This document shows, piece by piece, positions 1-5,477 of a DNA stretch of 5,601 nucleotides (positions are counted from its first letter, which is position 1; every line of letters starts with the position of its first letter). The stretch lies in the IMG/VR virus record IMGVR_UViG_2547132271_000007; one strand, given 5' to 3'. The stretch is from a virus. Taxonomy: Duplodnaviria; Heunggongvirae; Uroviricota; Caudoviricetes. The notes beneath the pieces are model-generated. The model searched no databases and had not been told where the DNA came from. It saw only the letters and a program-made list of their open reading frames with translations. Both the position numbers and the translations under genes were made by a program.

Positions 1-27
1 CATATCAGGAACTTGTTCGCACCTTCC

Positions 28-101
28 CTAGGAAATGATTTCCGATCTATTTAGGAAGTAACCTAGGAAGTGGTTTCCTACCTACTTAGGAAATGAGTTC
101 C
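28..101. repeat. Iteron-like array: three copies of a 16-bp imperfect palindrome YTAGGAARTGRTTTCC (28-43, 63-78, 86-101) plus a partial copy TTAGGAAGTAACC (51-63)
   Basis: Read directly. Copy 1 contains the perfect palindrome GGAAAT-G-ATTTCC; copies 2 and 3 differ at 2-3 positions. The window starts at position 1, so the array may continue upstream. Confidence 0.6.
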
Positions 102-1208: not shown

Positions 1209-1237
1209 TTGACAAATGTTTCTTTATATGTAATAAT
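1209..1237 (+). promoter_or_regulatory. Sigma-70/SigA-type promoter: TTGACA (1209-1214), 17-bp spacer, TG-extended -10 AATAAT (1232-1237)
   Basis: Perfect -35 hexamer, canonical spacing, TGn immediately upstream of the -10. Sits about 115 bp upstream of the first gene of the operon. Confidence 0.6.
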
Positions 1238-1350
1238 AGGTATTAGAGGGACAGAAAAACATTCTTCTCTAAATAATCAAAATCAATGCACTTTGAAGCC
1301 GTCAGGCTTGCAAGGTGTTTTATTTCTTTTAACTGAATAAGGAGTTTTTT

Positions 1351-1533: not shown

Positions 1534-1556
1534 TAACAGGAGAAGGAGAAAACCAA

Positions 1557-1745
1557 ATGAATATTAATTTTGATTCTGCAACTTATAACGCGTTGTTAAA
1601 TCGCGCAAAGGCAGAAGGGAAATCAATTCCAAAACTTGTTAATGAACTACTAATTACAGTCCTTACAAAGGAGGAACTAAATGATCAAAAATATCAAAAC
1701 AATTGCCGAAGCGAAAGCCAAATGTCTAAATCAGAAAGATGGTAA
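1557..1745 (+). CDS. Ribbon-helix-helix (Arc/MetJ/CopG-like) DNA-binding protein, 62 aa
   Basis: AAGGAG at 1543-1548, 8 nt before the ATG. N-terminus INFDSATYNALLNRAKAEGKSIPKLVNELLITVL fits the strand-helix-helix pattern of this superfamily. The 3-prime 65 nt overlap the next gene in another frame, so the true C-terminus is uncertain. Confidence 0.6.
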   Translation: MNINFDSATYNALLNRAKAEGKSIPKLVNELLITVLTKEELNDQKYQNNCRSESQMSKSERW

Positions 1746-3114: not shown

Positions 3115-3453
3115 ATGAACAAAAACACGTATGACACAATTTACTCACTAATTAATTATTATGAGGATGATTACCTCCTGCCTTTAAACCGCGCTGAACT
3201 TGAAGCATACAAAGAAAACACGCCAGCGGCACTAAATGAGGCGTTTAAACACTGGGATTTAGCTGTGAATGCCTTTGAGCACCTCTCTAAGCGTGTAGAG
3301 ATGCTCTGTAAGCGTGAGAACGCATATCTAACAGCGGATCAGCTATGGGAGCTATCAAACTGGATAGAAGGTATTGCATCGGACGTTCGCTATGTAGGAG
3401 ATGGACTTGTTGAACTAGCTCAACGCTTAGGCGCTACTATCACAGAAGAATAA
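3115..3453 (+). CDS. Hypothetical acidic protein, 112 aa
   Basis: GGAGA at 3101-3105, 9 nt before the ATG at 3115. The ORF track starts this frame at 3088, but that start overlaps the upstream gene and has no ribosome-binding site. Last gene before the second promoter. Confidence 0.6.
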   Translation: MNKNTYDTIYSLINYYEDDYLLPLNRAELEAYKENTPAALNEAFKHWDLAVNAFEHLSKRVEMLCKRENAYLTADQLWELSNWIEGIASDVRYVGDGLVELAQRLGATITEE

Positions 3454-3458
3454 AAAAA

Positions 3459-3475
3459 GCAACAAAAAAGTTGTA
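3459..3475. promoter_or_regulatory. Operator-like palindrome GCAAC-N6-GTTGTA, copy 1, just upstream of the -35 element
   Basis: CAAC/GTTG arms are exact reverse complements. The same GCAAC-N6-GTTGTA unit recurs at 3742-3758. Confidence 0.4.
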
Positions 3476-3482
3476 AAATATC

Positions 3483-3511
3483 TTGACATTTCATATATTG
3501 TATGTTAATAT
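3483..3511 (+). promoter_or_regulatory. Strong sigma-70/SigA-type promoter: TTGACA (3483-3488), 17-bp spacer, TG-extended -10 TAATAT (3506-3511)
   Basis: Perfect -35, canonical spacing, TGT immediately upstream of the -10. Faces the downstream capsid-like genes. Confidence 0.65.
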
Positions 3512-3641
3512 AATTATATAGGGGTGATTATTTTTCCTTTATTGGTTCGATATTAAAAATTCTTCCTGTCATTAAAGGGGAGTAAAATCTCCGCTCCCCG
3601 CTTCTCCTCCTTAAGTAAATACTGTGCCATTATACCTCTTT

Positions 3642-3671
3642 GTTATGCATACATCTTGGAGTATGCATAAC
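3642..3671. promoter_or_regulatory. Inverted repeat GTTATGCATA-N10-TATGCATAAC in the leader; each arm contains the palindrome TATGCATA
   Basis: 10-bp arms are exact reverse complements. A related GTTATGCAAC occurs at 3737-3746. Could be an operator or an RNA hairpin. Confidence 0.5.
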
Positions 3672-3700
3672 ATAGGGTAATTACATAGGTATGAGTTAAT

Positions 3701-3732
3701 AAAAGGCGGCTTTAAATGCTGCCTTTTATTTT
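3701..3732 (+). terminator. Intrinsic terminator-like hairpin inside the leader: stem GGCGGC(3705-3710)/GCTGCC(3718-3723) with one G-U pair, 7-nt loop, U-tract 3724-3732
   Basis: An A-tract (3701-3704) upstream can extend the stem. Lies about 190 nt downstream of the predicted start site and about 60 nt upstream of the first downstream gene. Confidence 0.5.
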
Positions 3733-3741
3733 GCCCGTTAT

Positions 3742-3758
3742 GCAACTTAAAAGTTGTA
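3742..3758. promoter_or_regulatory. Operator-like palindrome GCAAC-N6-GTTGTA, copy 2, immediately after the leader terminator
   Basis: Same unit as 3459-3475, 283 bp away. Confidence 0.4.
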
Positions 3759-3794
3759 TTTCTTACTTTAAACAAGGTAACAAGGTTTATATAA

Positions 3795-4007
3795 ATGTTG
3801 TTCTTAAATGATAAAGAGCAAATCATCAAGTATAAAGATGAAATGCTGAAAATTAATCCACAAATTACCGAAATGGTAGCTAAATACGCTGGGTGTTCTG
3901 TAGAGGAAGTAGAAAGATGTGTTGAAAAATATTTTTCTCCTTCTTCTCCGTCTACACCTTCCCTTAATGAATTAATCAAATTAAAAGCTAAGGAGATTAC
4001 TAAATGA
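3795..4007 (+). CDS. Hypothetical small protein, 70 aa
   Basis: Weak AAGG about 9 nt upstream. Its stop overlaps the next start codon (ATGA, 4004-4007), which suggests translational coupling. An alternative in-frame start is at 3843. Confidence 0.5.
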   Translation: MLFLNDKEQIIKYKDEMLKINPQITEMVAKYAGCSVEEVERCVEKYFSPSSPSTPSLNELIKLKAKEITK

Positions 4008-4366
4008 TTATTGATTTAGACACTCTGTTTCCAGTTCGAAAGACTTTCACAGATATTGTAAGTTATTGTACTGATCCGTTTGCCTCTGTAGAAAGCAAGG
4101 TTTTTGCTTCTCTTCCTGCTGATGTTGAGTGCGGAGACTTGATCACCAGCACGGGCGCTAAATATGAATCAGGAGATGATATTTATGTTGTTATGAGTGA
4201 ATTTGTAACGGCTGGAGAAAACAAGCCTGTAGATGTGCTACGTAGCAATGCTGGCCTTGTATGCATCAAAGCTGATGCCCTGAATGCTGTAAGTGAAGCA
4301 GCAAAAACAGCATTAATTAAAAAAGGCTTCCAGCTTGAAGGCTTTAATACGGTTTTCACTTCTTAA
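4004..4366 (+). CDS. Hypothetical protein, 120 aa; possible head decoration protein (lambda gpD-like) by position only
   Basis: AAGGAG at 3990-3995, 8 nt before the ATG. It sits directly upstream of the capsid-like gene and is about the size of lambda gpD (110 aa). I see no convincing sequence similarity from memory. Confidence 0.65.
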   Translation: MIIDLDTLFPVRKTFTDIVSYCTDPFASVESKVFASLPADVECGDLITSTGAKYESGDDIYVVMSEFVTAGENKPVDVLRSNAGLVCIKADALNAVSEAAKTALIKKGFQLEGFNTVFTS

Positions 4367-4384
4367 TAAAAGGAATAATAATAA

Positions 4385-5413
4385 ATGATTCTAGGTAATG
4401 ATTACGTTGATTTAGCTCCTCTGTTCCAGGCACACAGCACTAGAAACTATCTGCTCTCTACCCTTGATTTTACGGATTCTGTAGGGGTTACATCTCATAA
4501 AGTAGCTGTTTCCCAGCTTGTCGAAAGCAACGAATCTCTCTTTAACAAAGAGACAAGCCGTTTCTCTTCTGAACACAACGTTACTAAGCGAGAACAAGGT
4601 AAAGAATGGCTGATCGAAATCCCGTATTTTCTTCGTGAGGATGTGATCCGTCCCTCTGATGTTCAAGGCAAGCGTAAGCCTGGCACTGATTTTCAGGAAA
4701 CACTCACTGATATCTATGCTGACTATGTTGCTAAACACCACGTAGCGTATCAGCGTACAAAAGAGAGCGTATTGGCTGCTTCTTTGTTCTCTGGCAAAAC
4801 TTACACGCCTAAAACTGATGATGTTCTTATCGAGTGGAGCAAGCTGTTTAACGTGGTACCTATGAAAACCACTGTGAACGCTTCCAGCACTGACACCACG
4901 AAGATTTTTAAAGAATTTGATCAGATTGCTACTGACATTATCGAGAAAGCACAAAGCCAGGCGGCTGCTGTAGAGCGTATTGTTGTTTTCTGTAAACCTG
5001 AAGCCTTCTCTGCAATTCGATTCTCTGCGGGTATGGCAAACGCATTCCAGTATGTAAGCCCACTGGAAGAAGGGAACGTTGTGTATCAGCGTCGTGACCT
5101 GCTGCCAGGGGTGACAGCGTTCACTATTCCAGGAACTAACATCGATGTTGTTAAACTGGTAGATCCGCTACACCTTGCACATATGACCGCAGACGCTGTA
5201 GCTGTTCCGAAGTTTGCTAAAGGCTCTAATGTATATCAGAACATCTACGGGGCTGCTTCCAGCACCTTTGAACTGATTAATGCCGCTCCTGCTGAAGTGT
5301 ATAGCTATAGCTATGAATCTTCTCGTGGTGATGCTGTTAACGTGGTTACAGAGAATAGCCAGATGGTTGTAAACCACGGTGTAGGCTTCTCCGTTCAAAT
5401 CACTGTTAAATAA
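4385..5413 (+). CDS. Probable major capsid protein, 342 aa, lambda gpE-like family (tentative)
   Basis: Longest ORF in the window, rich in V/A/S/T, followed by a strong terminator. Against my recalled lambda gpE sequence (341 aa) there are three colinear local matches: SLFSGKTYTPKTDD vs AVLKGKYTMTGE; IVVFCKPEAFSAIRFS vs IIVFDPKGWALFRSF; LLPGVTAFTIPG vs FLPDNTMVLGN. Family assignment is unverified. Confidence 0.8.
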   Translation: MILGNDYVDLAPLFQAHSTRNYLLSTLDFTDSVGVTSHKVAVSQLVESNESLFNKETSRFSSEHNVTKREQGKEWLIEIPYFLREDVIRPSDVQGKRKPGTDFQETLTDIYADYVAKHHVAYQRTKESVLAASLFSGKTYTPKTDDVLIEWSKLFNVVPMKTTVNASSTDTTKIFKEFDQIATDIIEKAQSQAAAVERIVVFCKPEAFSAIRFSAGMANAFQYVSPLEEGNVVYQRRDLLPGVTAFTIPGTNIDVVKLVDPLHLAHMTADAVAVPKFAKGSNVYQNIYGAASSTFELINAAPAEVYSYSYESSRGDAVNVVTENSQMVVNHGVGFSVQITVK

Positions 5414-5431: not shown

Positions 5432-5477
5432 AGGCGTGGCGTGAATAACACGCTTCGCCTTTTTTTATTTATTTTTT
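5432..5477 (+). terminator. Strong Rho-independent terminator: 12-bp stem AGGCGTGGCGTG/CACGCTTCGCCT (one mismatch, one G-U), loop AATAA, U-tract TTTTTTATTTATTTTTT
   Basis: Read directly; begins 19 nt after the capsid-like stop codon. Confidence 0.8.

What the first reader, a model, noticed from the sequence alone, without database searches (positions are those of the whole stretch)
3459..3758. Paired GCAAC-N6-GTTGTA palindromes bracketing the late promoter and leader
The same 17-bp unit occurs at 3459-3475, abutting the -35 element, and at 3742-3758, just after the leader terminator and 36 bp before the first gene. The CAAC/GTTG arms with a 6-bp spacer fit a dimeric helix-turn-helix site. Two copies 283 bp apart could support looping or coordinated control. 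GTTATGCA also recurs at 3642, 3737 and, inverted, at 3662.
Basis: seen in the sequence. Interest (0 to 1): 0.5.

Follow-up and report, generated by a model that had tools for sequence, protein, structure and literature searches.

The report
Paired operator-like palindromes gating satellite late genes
Two copies of a short palindrome really do bracket the promoter and terminator-containing leader in front of the capsid genes of a small chromosomal phage-satellite-like island, and the pair is kept across distant relatives, so it is most likely a two-site docking point for a still-unidentified regulator of those genes.

Summary
GCAAC-N6-GTTGTA occurs exactly twice in the window, at 3459-3475 and 3742-3758, and nowhere else in the about 11-kb island.

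It is not chance. Among 26 dereplicated relatives from E. coli, Citrobacter, Enterobacter and metagenomes, the relaxed motif YAAC-N6-GTTR lies at the late promoter in 12 and just upstream of the first late gene in 12. Eleven have both, against 0.004 expected.

- The arms co-vary between lineages: CAAC/GTTG in the E. coli clade, TAAC/GTTA elsewhere.
- The spacer sequence is free but its length is fixed at 6.
- The promoter-proximal copy sits in one of two fixed registers relative to the -35/-10 hexamers.

This is the signature of a DNA operator pair for a dimeric protein. The most likely action is repression, roadblock or looping over a strong sigma-70 promoter and its terminator-ended leader.

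No early-operon protein co-varies with the sites, and the distance between sites is not helically phased.

The downstream copy also lies inside a positionally conserved RNA hairpin, so an RNA-level role remains a real rival.

The host island itself looks like an undescribed satellite of phi92-like phages.

The parts
3459..3475 (.). Promoter-proximal site P, GCAAC-AAAAAA-GTTGTA (core CAAC-N6-GTTG at 3460-3473). It starts 6 nt after the stop codon of the last early gene. The core ends 9 nt before the -35 hexamer.
   Evidence: Identical in 34 of 38 E. coli-clade loci. Same register (core start 23-24 nt upstream of the -35 start) in window and L021 and, by reading the sequence, in L070 and L087.
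3742..3758 (.). Start-proximal site S, GCAAC-TTAAAA-GTTGTA (core 3743-3756). It lies 10 nt after the terminator U-tract and 36 nt before the first late ATG. As RNA, 3740-3759 can form a 7-8 bp hairpin.
   Evidence: -7.6 kcal/mol. In 9 of 38 E. coli-clade loci a G-to-A change makes the perfect palindrome TACAAC/GTTGTA. An S copy is present in 12 of 26 lineages.
3483..3511 (+). Late promoter: TTGACA, 17-nt spacer, TAATAT, with TG at 3503-3504 (extended -10).
   Evidence: 10 of 12 matches, TG present. A promoter of the same form is found at the same place in all relatives examined.
3518..3732 (+). Untranslated leader of about 215 nt (start inferred). It contains hairpin 3576-3599, a CU-rich tract 3600-3614, a perfect 12-bp hairpin 3641-3672, and an intrinsic terminator 3698-3732 (13-bp stem, U-tract).
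   Evidence: Fold z = -5.0. No ORF. No Rfam match. About 95% conserved in the E. coli clade. Relatives have leaders of roughly 320-820 nt (from the inferred start, about 7 nt after the -10, to the last terminator) ending in one or more terminator-like hairpins with a U-tract.
3115..3453 (+). Last early gene (ORF6, 112 aa, all-helical, strongly acidic), directly upstream of site P.
   Evidence: No family or PDB match.
3795..5413 (+). Start of the late operon controlled by the cassette: a 70-aa helical protein (3795-4007), a 120-aa protein (4004-4366) and a gpE-type major capsid protein (4385-5413).
   Evidence: Conserved order in relatives, followed by a tape-measure-like and a Dit-like gene.

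Best explanation
P and S are two operators on duplex DNA for one sequence-specific dimeric (or dimer-of-dimers) protein that gates the island's late (capsid and tail) operon.

**What is shown.** The late promoter is near-consensus for sigma-70. Its transcript runs into a strong intrinsic terminator, so the default output should be a short leader RNA.

**What is inferred.**
- The protein bound at P interferes with RNA polymerase at the promoter. P abuts the -35/UP region in the E. coli clade and fills the -35/-10 spacer in most other lineages.
- The same protein bound at S, between the last terminator and the ribosome-binding site, acts either as a roadblock to read-through transcription from the early and late promoters, or as the second anchor of a repression loop.
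- Relief during helper-phage infection would open the late operon.

**What is unknown.** The binder is not identified. Comparative data argue against the early-module proteins, which leaves a protein linked to the late module, a host factor or a helper factor.
For: 1. Motif YAAC-N6-GTTR has a background rate of 5e-5 per nt (16 hits in 317.5 kb). It is present in the 101-nt S window in 12 of 26 lineages (binomial p about 3e-21) and in the P window in 12 of 26 (p about 3e-12). Both are present in 11, against 0.004 expected.
2. The enrichment is specific to spacer length. In 96 loci there are 78 (P) and 68 (S) hits at N6, against 0-9 at N3-5 and N7-9, while the background is flat across lengths.
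3. The arms are conserved and co-vary between the two sites of the same element. Both are CAAC/GTTG in the E. coli clade and both TAAC/GTTA in most other lineages that carry both sites. In L079 and L081 the P site is a TAAC/GTTG hybrid, and L082 has GCTG in both. Spacers are free: 10 distinct P cores and 7 distinct S cores.
4. P occupies only two registers. Its core starts 23-24 nt upstream of the -35 start, or 9-12 nt downstream of it (inside the spacer, touching or overlapping the -10).
5. Most P sites pair over only 4 bp, too weak for an RNA structure (-1.9 to -4.3 kcal/mol).
6. No other copies lie elsewhere in the island or at the early promoter.
7. Candidate DNA binders exist in the element: an RHH protein (ORF2), an HTH_36 protein (ORF3) and a possible winged-HTH protein (ORF4).
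Against: - No element protein co-varies with site presence or type. The early module is mosaic relative to the late module. RHH subtype a, the ORF4 subgroup at 83-92% identity and the ORF1 subgroup at 80-98% identity each occur in both site-positive and site-negative lineages.
- ORF5 gave an orphan fold. The 70-aa protein gave a nondescript helical model.
- The inter-site distance is not phased.
- S is nested in longer hairpins whose outer arms change in a compensatory way. All lineages, including those without the motif, carry some hairpin at that spot.
- Flank variation in the E. coli clade is wobble-compatible: G..T, and one isolate with GCAAT/GTTGC.
- About half the lineages lack the motif altogether.
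- Nothing here shows binding.
Confidence: 0.45

Rival explanations
1. RNA-level element. P and S act as small A-rich-loop hairpins in transcripts, recognised by one RNA-binding factor. P is transcribed only by read-through from the early operon. Possible roles are boxB/nut-like loading of an antiterminator ahead of the leader terminators, or control of processing, stability or translation of the late mRNA 5' UTR.
For: - S folds at -7.6 kcal/mol in the window. In the relatives folded, it forms the tip (or part) of hairpins of -10.8 to -22 kcal/mol, whose outer arms change compensatorily (TCTGTG/CACAGA, TCTGCG/CGCAGA, CTGCATG/CATGCAG).
- Every lineage examined has a palindrome or potential hairpin between the last terminator and the Shine-Dalgarno sequence, whatever its sequence.
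- G..T flanks and the GCAAT/GTTGC isolate are wobble-compatible.
- Both operons are terminator-gated, which calls for antitermination.
- P lies upstream of the leader terminators, as nutR lies before tR1 (established lambda biology).
- ORF5, universal in the family, has a basic N-terminus.
Against: - The conservation pattern is the reverse of protein-bound RNA hairpins such as boxB. Here stem bases are fixed and loop sequence is free, with loop length fixed at 6.
- Most P stems are 4 bp and marginally stable.
- The P register is tied to the promoter hexamers, which RNA function would not require.
- The ORF5 N-terminus does not co-vary with the sites.
- There is no Rfam match.
Confidence: 0.22
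2. Q/AlpA-type antitermination cassette. The palindrome at the promoter is the DNA loading site for a factor that boards RNA polymerase paused just after initiation and carries it through the leader terminators. S would be incidental.
For: - There is a strong promoter, one or more intrinsic terminators, then late structural genes.
- In most non-E. coli lineages the site lies between -35 and -10, as the Q-binding and AlpA-binding elements do (PMC9371919).
- A conserved TA(T/G)(A/T)AGGG, and further TAnnnT-like hexamers, follow both the early and the late promoters.
Against: - In the window, P is upstream of the -35, about 45-55 bp from any candidate pause element, which is too far for Q-like loading.
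- S is unexplained, yet it is as conserved as P.
- Known Q-binding and AlpA-binding elements are not palindromes (PMC9371919).
Confidence: 0.1
3. The two sites have no shared factor. S is simply a 5'-UTR hairpin and P is part of an A-rich UP-like or 3'-end element. Their likeness would reflect local duplication or descent.
For: - The region upstream of the -35 is A-rich.
- About half the lineages lack the motif at both positions.
- Outside the YAAC lineages, shared P/S arms are not significant at 5-bp arms.
Against: - Joint presence in 11 lineages with different spacers, flanks and P registers.
- Joint change of arm sequence in both sites.
- Strict N6 spacing at both positions.
Confidence: 0.1
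4. Core sites for a tyrosine recombinase (inverted arms around a 6-bp overlap) that invert or excise the promoter-terminator cassette. The small FimB-sized recombinase at the island's left end would catalyse this.
For: - The 4-6-4 architecture resembles recombinase core sites.
- Relatives encode a 183-291 aa PF00589 protein at the left end, about 185-205 aa in most.
- The two L021 cores are identical.
Against: - The spacers of the two sites differ in the window (AAAAAA against TTAAAA) and in most lineages, which blocks strand exchange.
- The cassette has one orientation in all 100-plus loci, and in 305 of 308 E. coli genomes with a match it aligns over at least 80% of the query as a single place in the same orientation, with no precise deletion variants.
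Confidence: 0.03

Closest known systems
Phage 434 (and P22/lambda-type) operators bound by Cro/CI dimers
   Same: A 14-bp site with 4-bp conserved inverted arms and a 6-bp A/T-rich spacer that is not conserved in sequence (434: ACAA-N6-TTGT, from established knowledge). The site overlaps or abuts a sigma-70 promoter.
   Different: - The arm sequence differs (YAAC/GTTR).
- There are two isolated sites 280-740 bp apart rather than a tripartite operator.
- No Cro/CI-like protein was identified.
- The promoter-proximal site is upstream of the -35 in this window.
Dual-operator repression with an auxiliary downstream operator (gal OE/OI with GalR, lac O1/O2, deo)
   Same: One operator lies at or just upstream of the promoter and a second lies downstream of the start site, bracketing the promoter and leader. 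Repression by looping or roadblock is the textbook outcome.
   Different: - The distance is longer and not helically phased.
- The downstream site sits after an intrinsic terminator.
- The binder is unknown.
Lambdoid PR'-qut-tR' (Q) and Pseudomonas PalpB-tB (AlpA) antitermination cassettes
   Same: A constitutive-looking promoter, then a short terminated leader, then late or lysis genes. There is a DNA element in the -35/-10 spacer in many relatives (PMC9371919).
   Different: - The element here is a palindrome, and in this window it lies upstream of the -35.
- A second copy follows the terminator.
- No Q- or AlpA-like protein was found.
Lambda nutL/nutR boxB hairpins (N antitermination)
   Same: Two copies per element of a small hairpin with an A-rich loop, whose sequence changes between related elements. 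One copy lies ahead of the terminators.
   Different: - Stem bases are conserved and the loop is free, the opposite of boxB.
- Stems are 4-5 bp and A/U-rich.
- One copy lies after the terminators.
- The P position is tied to the promoter hexamers.

Membership tests
Operator pair for a dimeric DNA-binding regulator | Inverted half-sites at a fixed spacing of about one helical turn | tested here: met
   CAAC/GTTG or TAAC/GTTA with N6. In 96 loci there are 78 (P) and 68 (S) hits at N6 against 0-9 at other spacings, with a flat background.
Operator pair for a dimeric DNA-binding regulator | Half-sites conserved, spacer sequence free | tested here: met
   AAC/GTT is the same in all 22 YAAC-matching variants tabulated, while spacers vary. 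There are 10 distinct P cores and 7 distinct S cores.
Operator pair for a dimeric DNA-binding regulator | Fixed position relative to core promoter elements | tested here: met
   The P core starts 23-24 nt upstream of the -35 start or 9-12 nt downstream of it (L070 and L087 read).
Operator pair for a dimeric DNA-binding regulator | Cognate DNA-binding protein encoded with the sites and co-varying with them | tested here: not met
   Early families ORF1, RHH, ORF3, ORF4, ORF5 and ORF6 do not track site presence or type. Host or helper factors were not testable.
Operator pair for a dimeric DNA-binding regulator | Helical phasing of the two sites (needed for the looping version only) | tested here: not met
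   Distances of 271-275, 283-286 and 291-294 bp in 36 of 38 E. coli-clade loci (the other two gave no valid distance), and 585-739 bp elsewhere.
Operator pair for a dimeric DNA-binding regulator | Demonstrated protein binding and effect on transcription | not testable with these tools
   Needs EMSA or footprinting, and reporter assays.
Q/AlpA-type antitermination cassette | Factor-binding DNA element between -35 and -10 | tested here: not met
   In the window the site is upstream of the -35 (3459-3475 against the -35 at 3483). The feature is met only in other lineages.
Q/AlpA-type antitermination cassette | -10-like sigma-dependent pause element in the initially transcribed region | tested here: inconclusive
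   A conserved TA..AGGG and TAnnnT-like hexamers lie after the -10. Pausing was not testable.
Q/AlpA-type antitermination cassette | Intrinsic terminator between the promoter and the regulated genes | tested here: met
   A 13-bp stem plus U-tract at 3698-3732. Relatives carry one or more terminator-like hairpins with a U-tract.
Q/AlpA-type antitermination cassette | Q- or AlpA-like protein encoded upstream | tested here: not met
nut/boxB-type RNA hairpin | Stable stem-loop with a conserved loop and a co-varying stem | tested here: not met
   Loop sequence is free and stem bases are fixed. The P hairpin is -1.9 to -4.3 kcal/mol.
nut/boxB-type RNA hairpin | Located upstream of the terminators it overcomes | tested here: inconclusive
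   P is upstream but only in early read-through RNA. S is downstream of the leader terminators.
Recombinase core sites (invertible or excisable cassette) | Identical overlap (spacer) in the partner sites | tested here: not met
   AAAAAA against TTAAAA in the window. Spacers differ in most lineages.
Recombinase core sites (invertible or excisable cassette) | Both orientations, or deletion products, seen in genomes | tested here: not met
   One orientation in all loci. In 305 of 308 E. coli genomes with a match the region aligns over at least 80% of the query as a single place in the same orientation.

The most novel reading that the evidence does not exclude
P and S may be the recognition sites of a late-gene switch in a previously undescribed family of capsid- and tail-gene-carrying satellites of phi92-like (Justusliebigvirus) phages.

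In this reading the factor that reads the sites is not an island early protein. It is a helper-phage or host protein, or a late-module protein. That factor licenses transcription through terminator-gated operons. The switch would combine a DNA operator with the RNA hairpin in which S is embedded.
Probability: 0.2. Interest if true: 0.7.

Novelty: new member of a known kind. Interest (0 to 1): 0.45.

Why it matters
If the pair is the control point of the late operon, it is the handle for asking how this very common island is switched on. Parts of the island occur in 1082 of 5426 complete E. coli genomes, and 186 of them hold at least 80% of this window.

The late operon encodes the island's own capsid, tape-measure and tail-initiator proteins. 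Mutating or titrating two 14-bp sites would be a clean way to uncouple the island from its helper.

The sites also give a compact signature for finding related elements: YAAC-N6-GTTR at a strong promoter, and again after a terminator, ahead of a gpE-type capsid gene.

The failure of any early protein to co-vary with the sites makes the identity of the binder a concrete, testable question.

Tried and rejected
- **Rfam scan of the window:** no match at E <= 1.
- **Helper-phage regulon idea.** The motif is not enriched in the first 150,000 bp of the 150,425-bp phage PaulScherrer genome. There are 18 hits, none in a recognisable intergenic cluster.
- **Phylogenetic profiling of early proteins against site type.** No family or subtype tracks the sites.
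- **Protein annotation.** Sequence searches of ORF1-ORF6 and the 70- and 120-aa proteins against Pfam, PHROGs and NCBIfam gave only RHH-like, HTH_36/replication-initiator-like and capsid E hits. PDB sequence searches of ORF4, ORF5, ORF6 and the 70-aa protein found nothing significant.
- **Structure prediction.**
  - The 70-aa protein, folded from a single sequence, has pLDDT 63 and only generic helical matches.
- **Invertible or excisable cassette:** rejected, because the spacers differ and the orientation is constant.
- **A second, activator-dependent promoter at S:** rejected. There is no room for a -10 and a 5' UTR before the ATG, and the distance from S to the ATG varies.
- **Long-range P:S RNA pairing.** Spacer complementarity is high in a few lineages (13 of 14 for GGAAAU with GCUUUC) but inconsistent overall (my inspection).
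- **Extending the 'paired palindrome' rule to lineages without the motif.** This is not significant by permutation at 5-bp arms.
- **Host-factor resemblances recalled from memory** (CytR octamers, TyrR box, dif, type I AAC-N6-GT sites; Fur-like and RcsAB-like boxes in other clades). None could be tested and none fits the core.
- **Literature searches** for this island family found nothing.

Full report
**1. The observation**

They match at 15 of 17 positions.
- Allowing one mismatch, the pattern has 3 matches in the window against 0.13 expected, and no shuffle reaches 3.
- The 4-6-4 core CAAC-N6-GTTG occurs only at these two places, against 0.07 expected.
- Each site is a true palindrome over only 4 bp. 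The fifth position is G...T.

The surrounding features are also as described.
- A near-consensus sigma-70 promoter: TTGACA at 3483, a 17-nt spacer, TAATAT ending at 3511, with an upstream TG.
- An ORF-free, significantly structured leader (z = -5.0) ending in a 13-bp-stem terminator with a U-tract at 3698-3732.
- The first late ATG at 3795, 36 nt after S.
- The recurring GTTATGCA octamers form the arms of a perfect 12-bp hairpin at 3641-3672 and the left flank of S.

**2. What the window is**

The window is the regulatory core of a chromosomal island of about 10-11 kb.
- Some part of it is present in 1082 of 5426 complete E. coli genomes. 186 of them hold at least 80% of the window.
- In a full-length copy it lies between a small recombinase gene and a tyrosine integrase gene, next to the CP4-6 region.

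Its layout is as follows.
- A repeat-rich non-coding stretch.
- A strong early promoter at 1209.
- An early operon of six small genes. ORF2 is RHH-like, ORF3 has an HTH_36/replication-initiator-like domain, and the rest are orphans.
- The promoter-leader-terminator cassette studied here.
- A late operon: a 70-aa helical protein, a 120-aa protein and a gpE-type major capsid protein. Beyond the window come a 63-aa protein, a tape-measure-like protein of about 615 aa and a Dit-like protein.

No terminase, portal, sheath or tube gene is present.

The Dit-like protein is 72% identical to the tail tube initiator of the phi92-like phage PaulScherrer. The tape-measure-like protein is 29-47% identical to that phage's tape measure, and the capsid protein is 21% identical to its capsid protein.

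Such phages also carry near-identical copies of the island's RHH gene and of the ORF3 winged-helix segment.

The island therefore looks like a satellite of Justusliebigvirus phages. I found no paper describing it in the library.

**3. Comparative evidence on the sites**

Capsid-protein homologues led to about 110 related loci from E. coli, Citrobacter, Enterobacter, Klebsiella, Dryocola, Sodalis, Serratia and metagenomes. All share the same architecture. A strong promoter sits right after the last early gene, followed by an untranslated leader ending in one or more terminator-like hairpins with a U-tract (roughly 320-820 nt from the inferred start to the last terminator), then the late operon.

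*Within the E. coli clade (38 loci)*
- P is identical in 34 loci.
- S has one common variant, G-to-A in 9 loci, which makes the perfect palindrome TACAAC/GTTGTA.
- The inter-site distance falls in three groups: 271-275, 283-286 and 291-294 bp.

*Across 26 dereplicated lineages*
- The relaxed motif YAAC-N6-GTTR has a background of 16 hits in 317.5 kb.
- It is present in a 101-nt window just upstream of the first late gene in 12 lineages (p about 3e-21).
- It is present in the promoter window in 12 lineages (p about 3e-12).
- Both are present in 11 lineages, against 0.004 expected.
- These p-values ignore shared descent. However, the sites differ between lineages in spacer, flanks and position class, so they are being maintained and not merely inherited.

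*Three further properties*
- The arm sequence changes in both sites together. Both are CAAC/GTTG in the E. coli clade and both TAAC/GTTA in most other lineages that carry both sites. L079 and L081 have a TAAC/GTTG hybrid at P, and L082 has GCTG in both sites.
- Spacer length is fixed. In 96 loci there are 78 (P) and 68 (S) hits at N6, against 0-9 at N3-5 and N7-9, while the background is flat across spacings. Spacer sequence is free (AAAAAA, TTAAAA, GGAAAT, GCTTTC, TATTAT, AAATAA and others), while AAC/GTT is the same in all 22 YAAC-matching variants tabulated.
- P occupies only two registers. Its core starts 23-24 nt upstream of the -35 start (window, L021, L070, L087), or 9-12 nt downstream of it, filling the spacer and touching or overlapping the -10 (most 61-65% and 77% clade lineages).

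Conserved half-sites, a free but fixed-length spacer and quantised promoter register together are the signature of a duplex-DNA site for a dimeric protein. The architecture equals that of phage 434 operators (ACAA-N6-TTGT, from established knowledge).

**4. What speaks for RNA instead**

- S is not only a 14-bp core. In the 61-65% clade it is the tip of hairpins whose outer arms change compensatorily: TCTGTG/CACAGA, TCTGCG/CGCAGA, CTGCATG/CATGCAG and GTCTG/CAGAC. The relatives' S regions folded here have minimum free energies of -10.8 to -22 kcal/mol.
- Lineages that lack the motif still show a palindrome or potential hairpin at the same place. Examples are the Klebsiella clade, the 72-73% clade, L016, L019 and L082.
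- In the E. coli clade the flank asymmetry is G..T, and one isolate has GCAAT...GTTGC. Both keep wobble pairing.

So S probably has an RNA-structural role common to the whole family. In about half of the lineages its tip additionally carries the shared YAAC-N6-GTTR core.

P, by contrast, pairs over only 4 bp in most lineages (-1.9 to -4.3 kcal/mol) and shows no extended pairing.

**5. Who binds?**

I could not identify the binder.
- The early module is mosaic relative to the late module.
- RHH subtypes, the ORF4 winged-helix candidates, ORF1, ORF3 and ORF5 all occur in closely related forms in both site-positive and site-negative lineages.
- ORF6, encoded immediately upstream of P, is strongly acidic and unlikely to bind DNA.
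- ORF5, universal in the family, gave a medium-confidence model with no fold match.
- The 70-aa first late protein gave only generic helical matches and may be a scaffold-like protein.
- The motif is not enriched in the candidate helper phage genome.

That the same half-sites persist while all early proteins diverge to 25-40% identity suggests a conserved factor outside the early module. It could be linked to the late module, or come from the host or the helper. This step is inference.

**6. Mechanism I commit to**

*Shown*
- A conserved pair of identical-specificity sites, one at the late promoter and one between the leader terminator and the late ribosome-binding site.
- A near-consensus promoter.
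- A strong terminator.

*Inferred* (confidence 0.45)
- One dimeric protein binds both sites on DNA.
- At P it hinders RNA polymerase, by occluding the spacer in most lineages and by sitting against the -35/UP region here.
- At S it blocks transcription that escapes the terminators, or closes a loop.
- Looping is the weakest part, because spacing is not phased.

*Rivals*
- A shared RNA-hairpin recognition element, nut-like or a 5'-UTR control element (0.22).
- A Q/AlpA-type loading site (0.10). The cassette context fits (PMC9371919), but in this window the site is too far upstream, S is unexplained, and no Q-like protein was found.
- No shared factor (0.10).
- Recombinase core sites (0.03). The spacers differ and the orientation is constant in all loci.

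**7. Novelty and verdict**

As a kind of thing, an operator pair at a phage-type late promoter is known. This is a new member, in an element family that appears not to have been described.

Its specifics, an early-operon protein as binder and looping, are not supported. The RNA hairpin context of S was missed.

Interest is moderate (0.45). It would rise if the binder proves to be a helper or host factor that licenses terminator-gated satellite operons.

Noticed in passing
window 3795-5413, plus L016 8153-10856 and L001 12001-22923: The island looks like an undescribed phage-satellite family. It has its own gpE-type capsid protein, a 120-aa protein encoded immediately upstream of the capsid gene (the position of the head decoration gene in phage PaulScherrer), a tape-measure-like protein and a Dit-like protein, but no terminase, portal, sheath or tube. 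The Dit-like protein is 72% identical to the tail tube initiator of phi92-like phage PaulScherrer, and the tape-measure-like protein is 29-47% identical to that phage's tape measure. No paper on it was found.
   Followed up: partly
window 1543-1709 and 1776-2036: The RHH gene ORF2 is 98-99% identical in DNA to a small early-region gene of phages PaulScherrer and VEcB. The winged-helix part of ORF3 is 96-97% identical to part of a 332-aa gene of phage muut, and to matching stretches in phages inny and Mt1B1_P17. This points to recent gene exchange between the island and lytic Justusliebigvirus phages, possibly a counter-measure.
   Followed up: partly
window 1209-1350: The early operon is built like the late one. 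It has a strong promoter (TTGACA at 1209, -10 ending at 1237), a conserved leader, and an intrinsic-terminator-like hairpin with a U-tract (about 1296-1340) just before ORF1. Both promoters are followed by TA(T/G)(A/T)AGGG. The design is conserved in relatives.
   Followed up: partly
window 3576-3614: The leader hairpin GGGGAG...CTCCCC is followed by the CU-rich tract CUUCUCCUCCUUAAG, which resembles the 3' end of 16S rRNA (anti-Shine-Dalgarno-like). A hairpin followed by a pyrimidine-rich, mostly CU-rich, tract recurs at the equivalent place in most distant relatives.
   Followed up: no
window 7-101, 397-448 and 520-572: An array of three AGGAA...TTCC palindrome-containing repeats lies at the left edge. 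Two exact 52-bp direct repeats lie 123 bp apart and contain ATAAC-N3/4-GTTAT. They could be iterons or recombinase sites.
   Followed up: no
L054 and L105, about -1590 to -1540 from the capsid ATG; L092, L095 and L017, about -1110 to -1080: Lineages lacking the YAAC motif carry other palindromes at the late promoter.
- A Fur-box-like GATAATGAAAATCATT over the -35, plus a 22-bp perfect palindrome on the -10 (72-73% clade).
- TAGGAATATTCCTA-type palindromes, plus GTTAC-N6-GTAAC just after the start site (Klebsiella clade).

The resemblance to Fur and RcsAB boxes is from memory and was not tested.
   Followed up: no
window 5438-5470: An intrinsic-terminator-like hairpin with a T-tract lies directly after the capsid gene, inside the late operon. 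Transcription of the downstream tail genes may therefore also need read-through.
   Followed up: no
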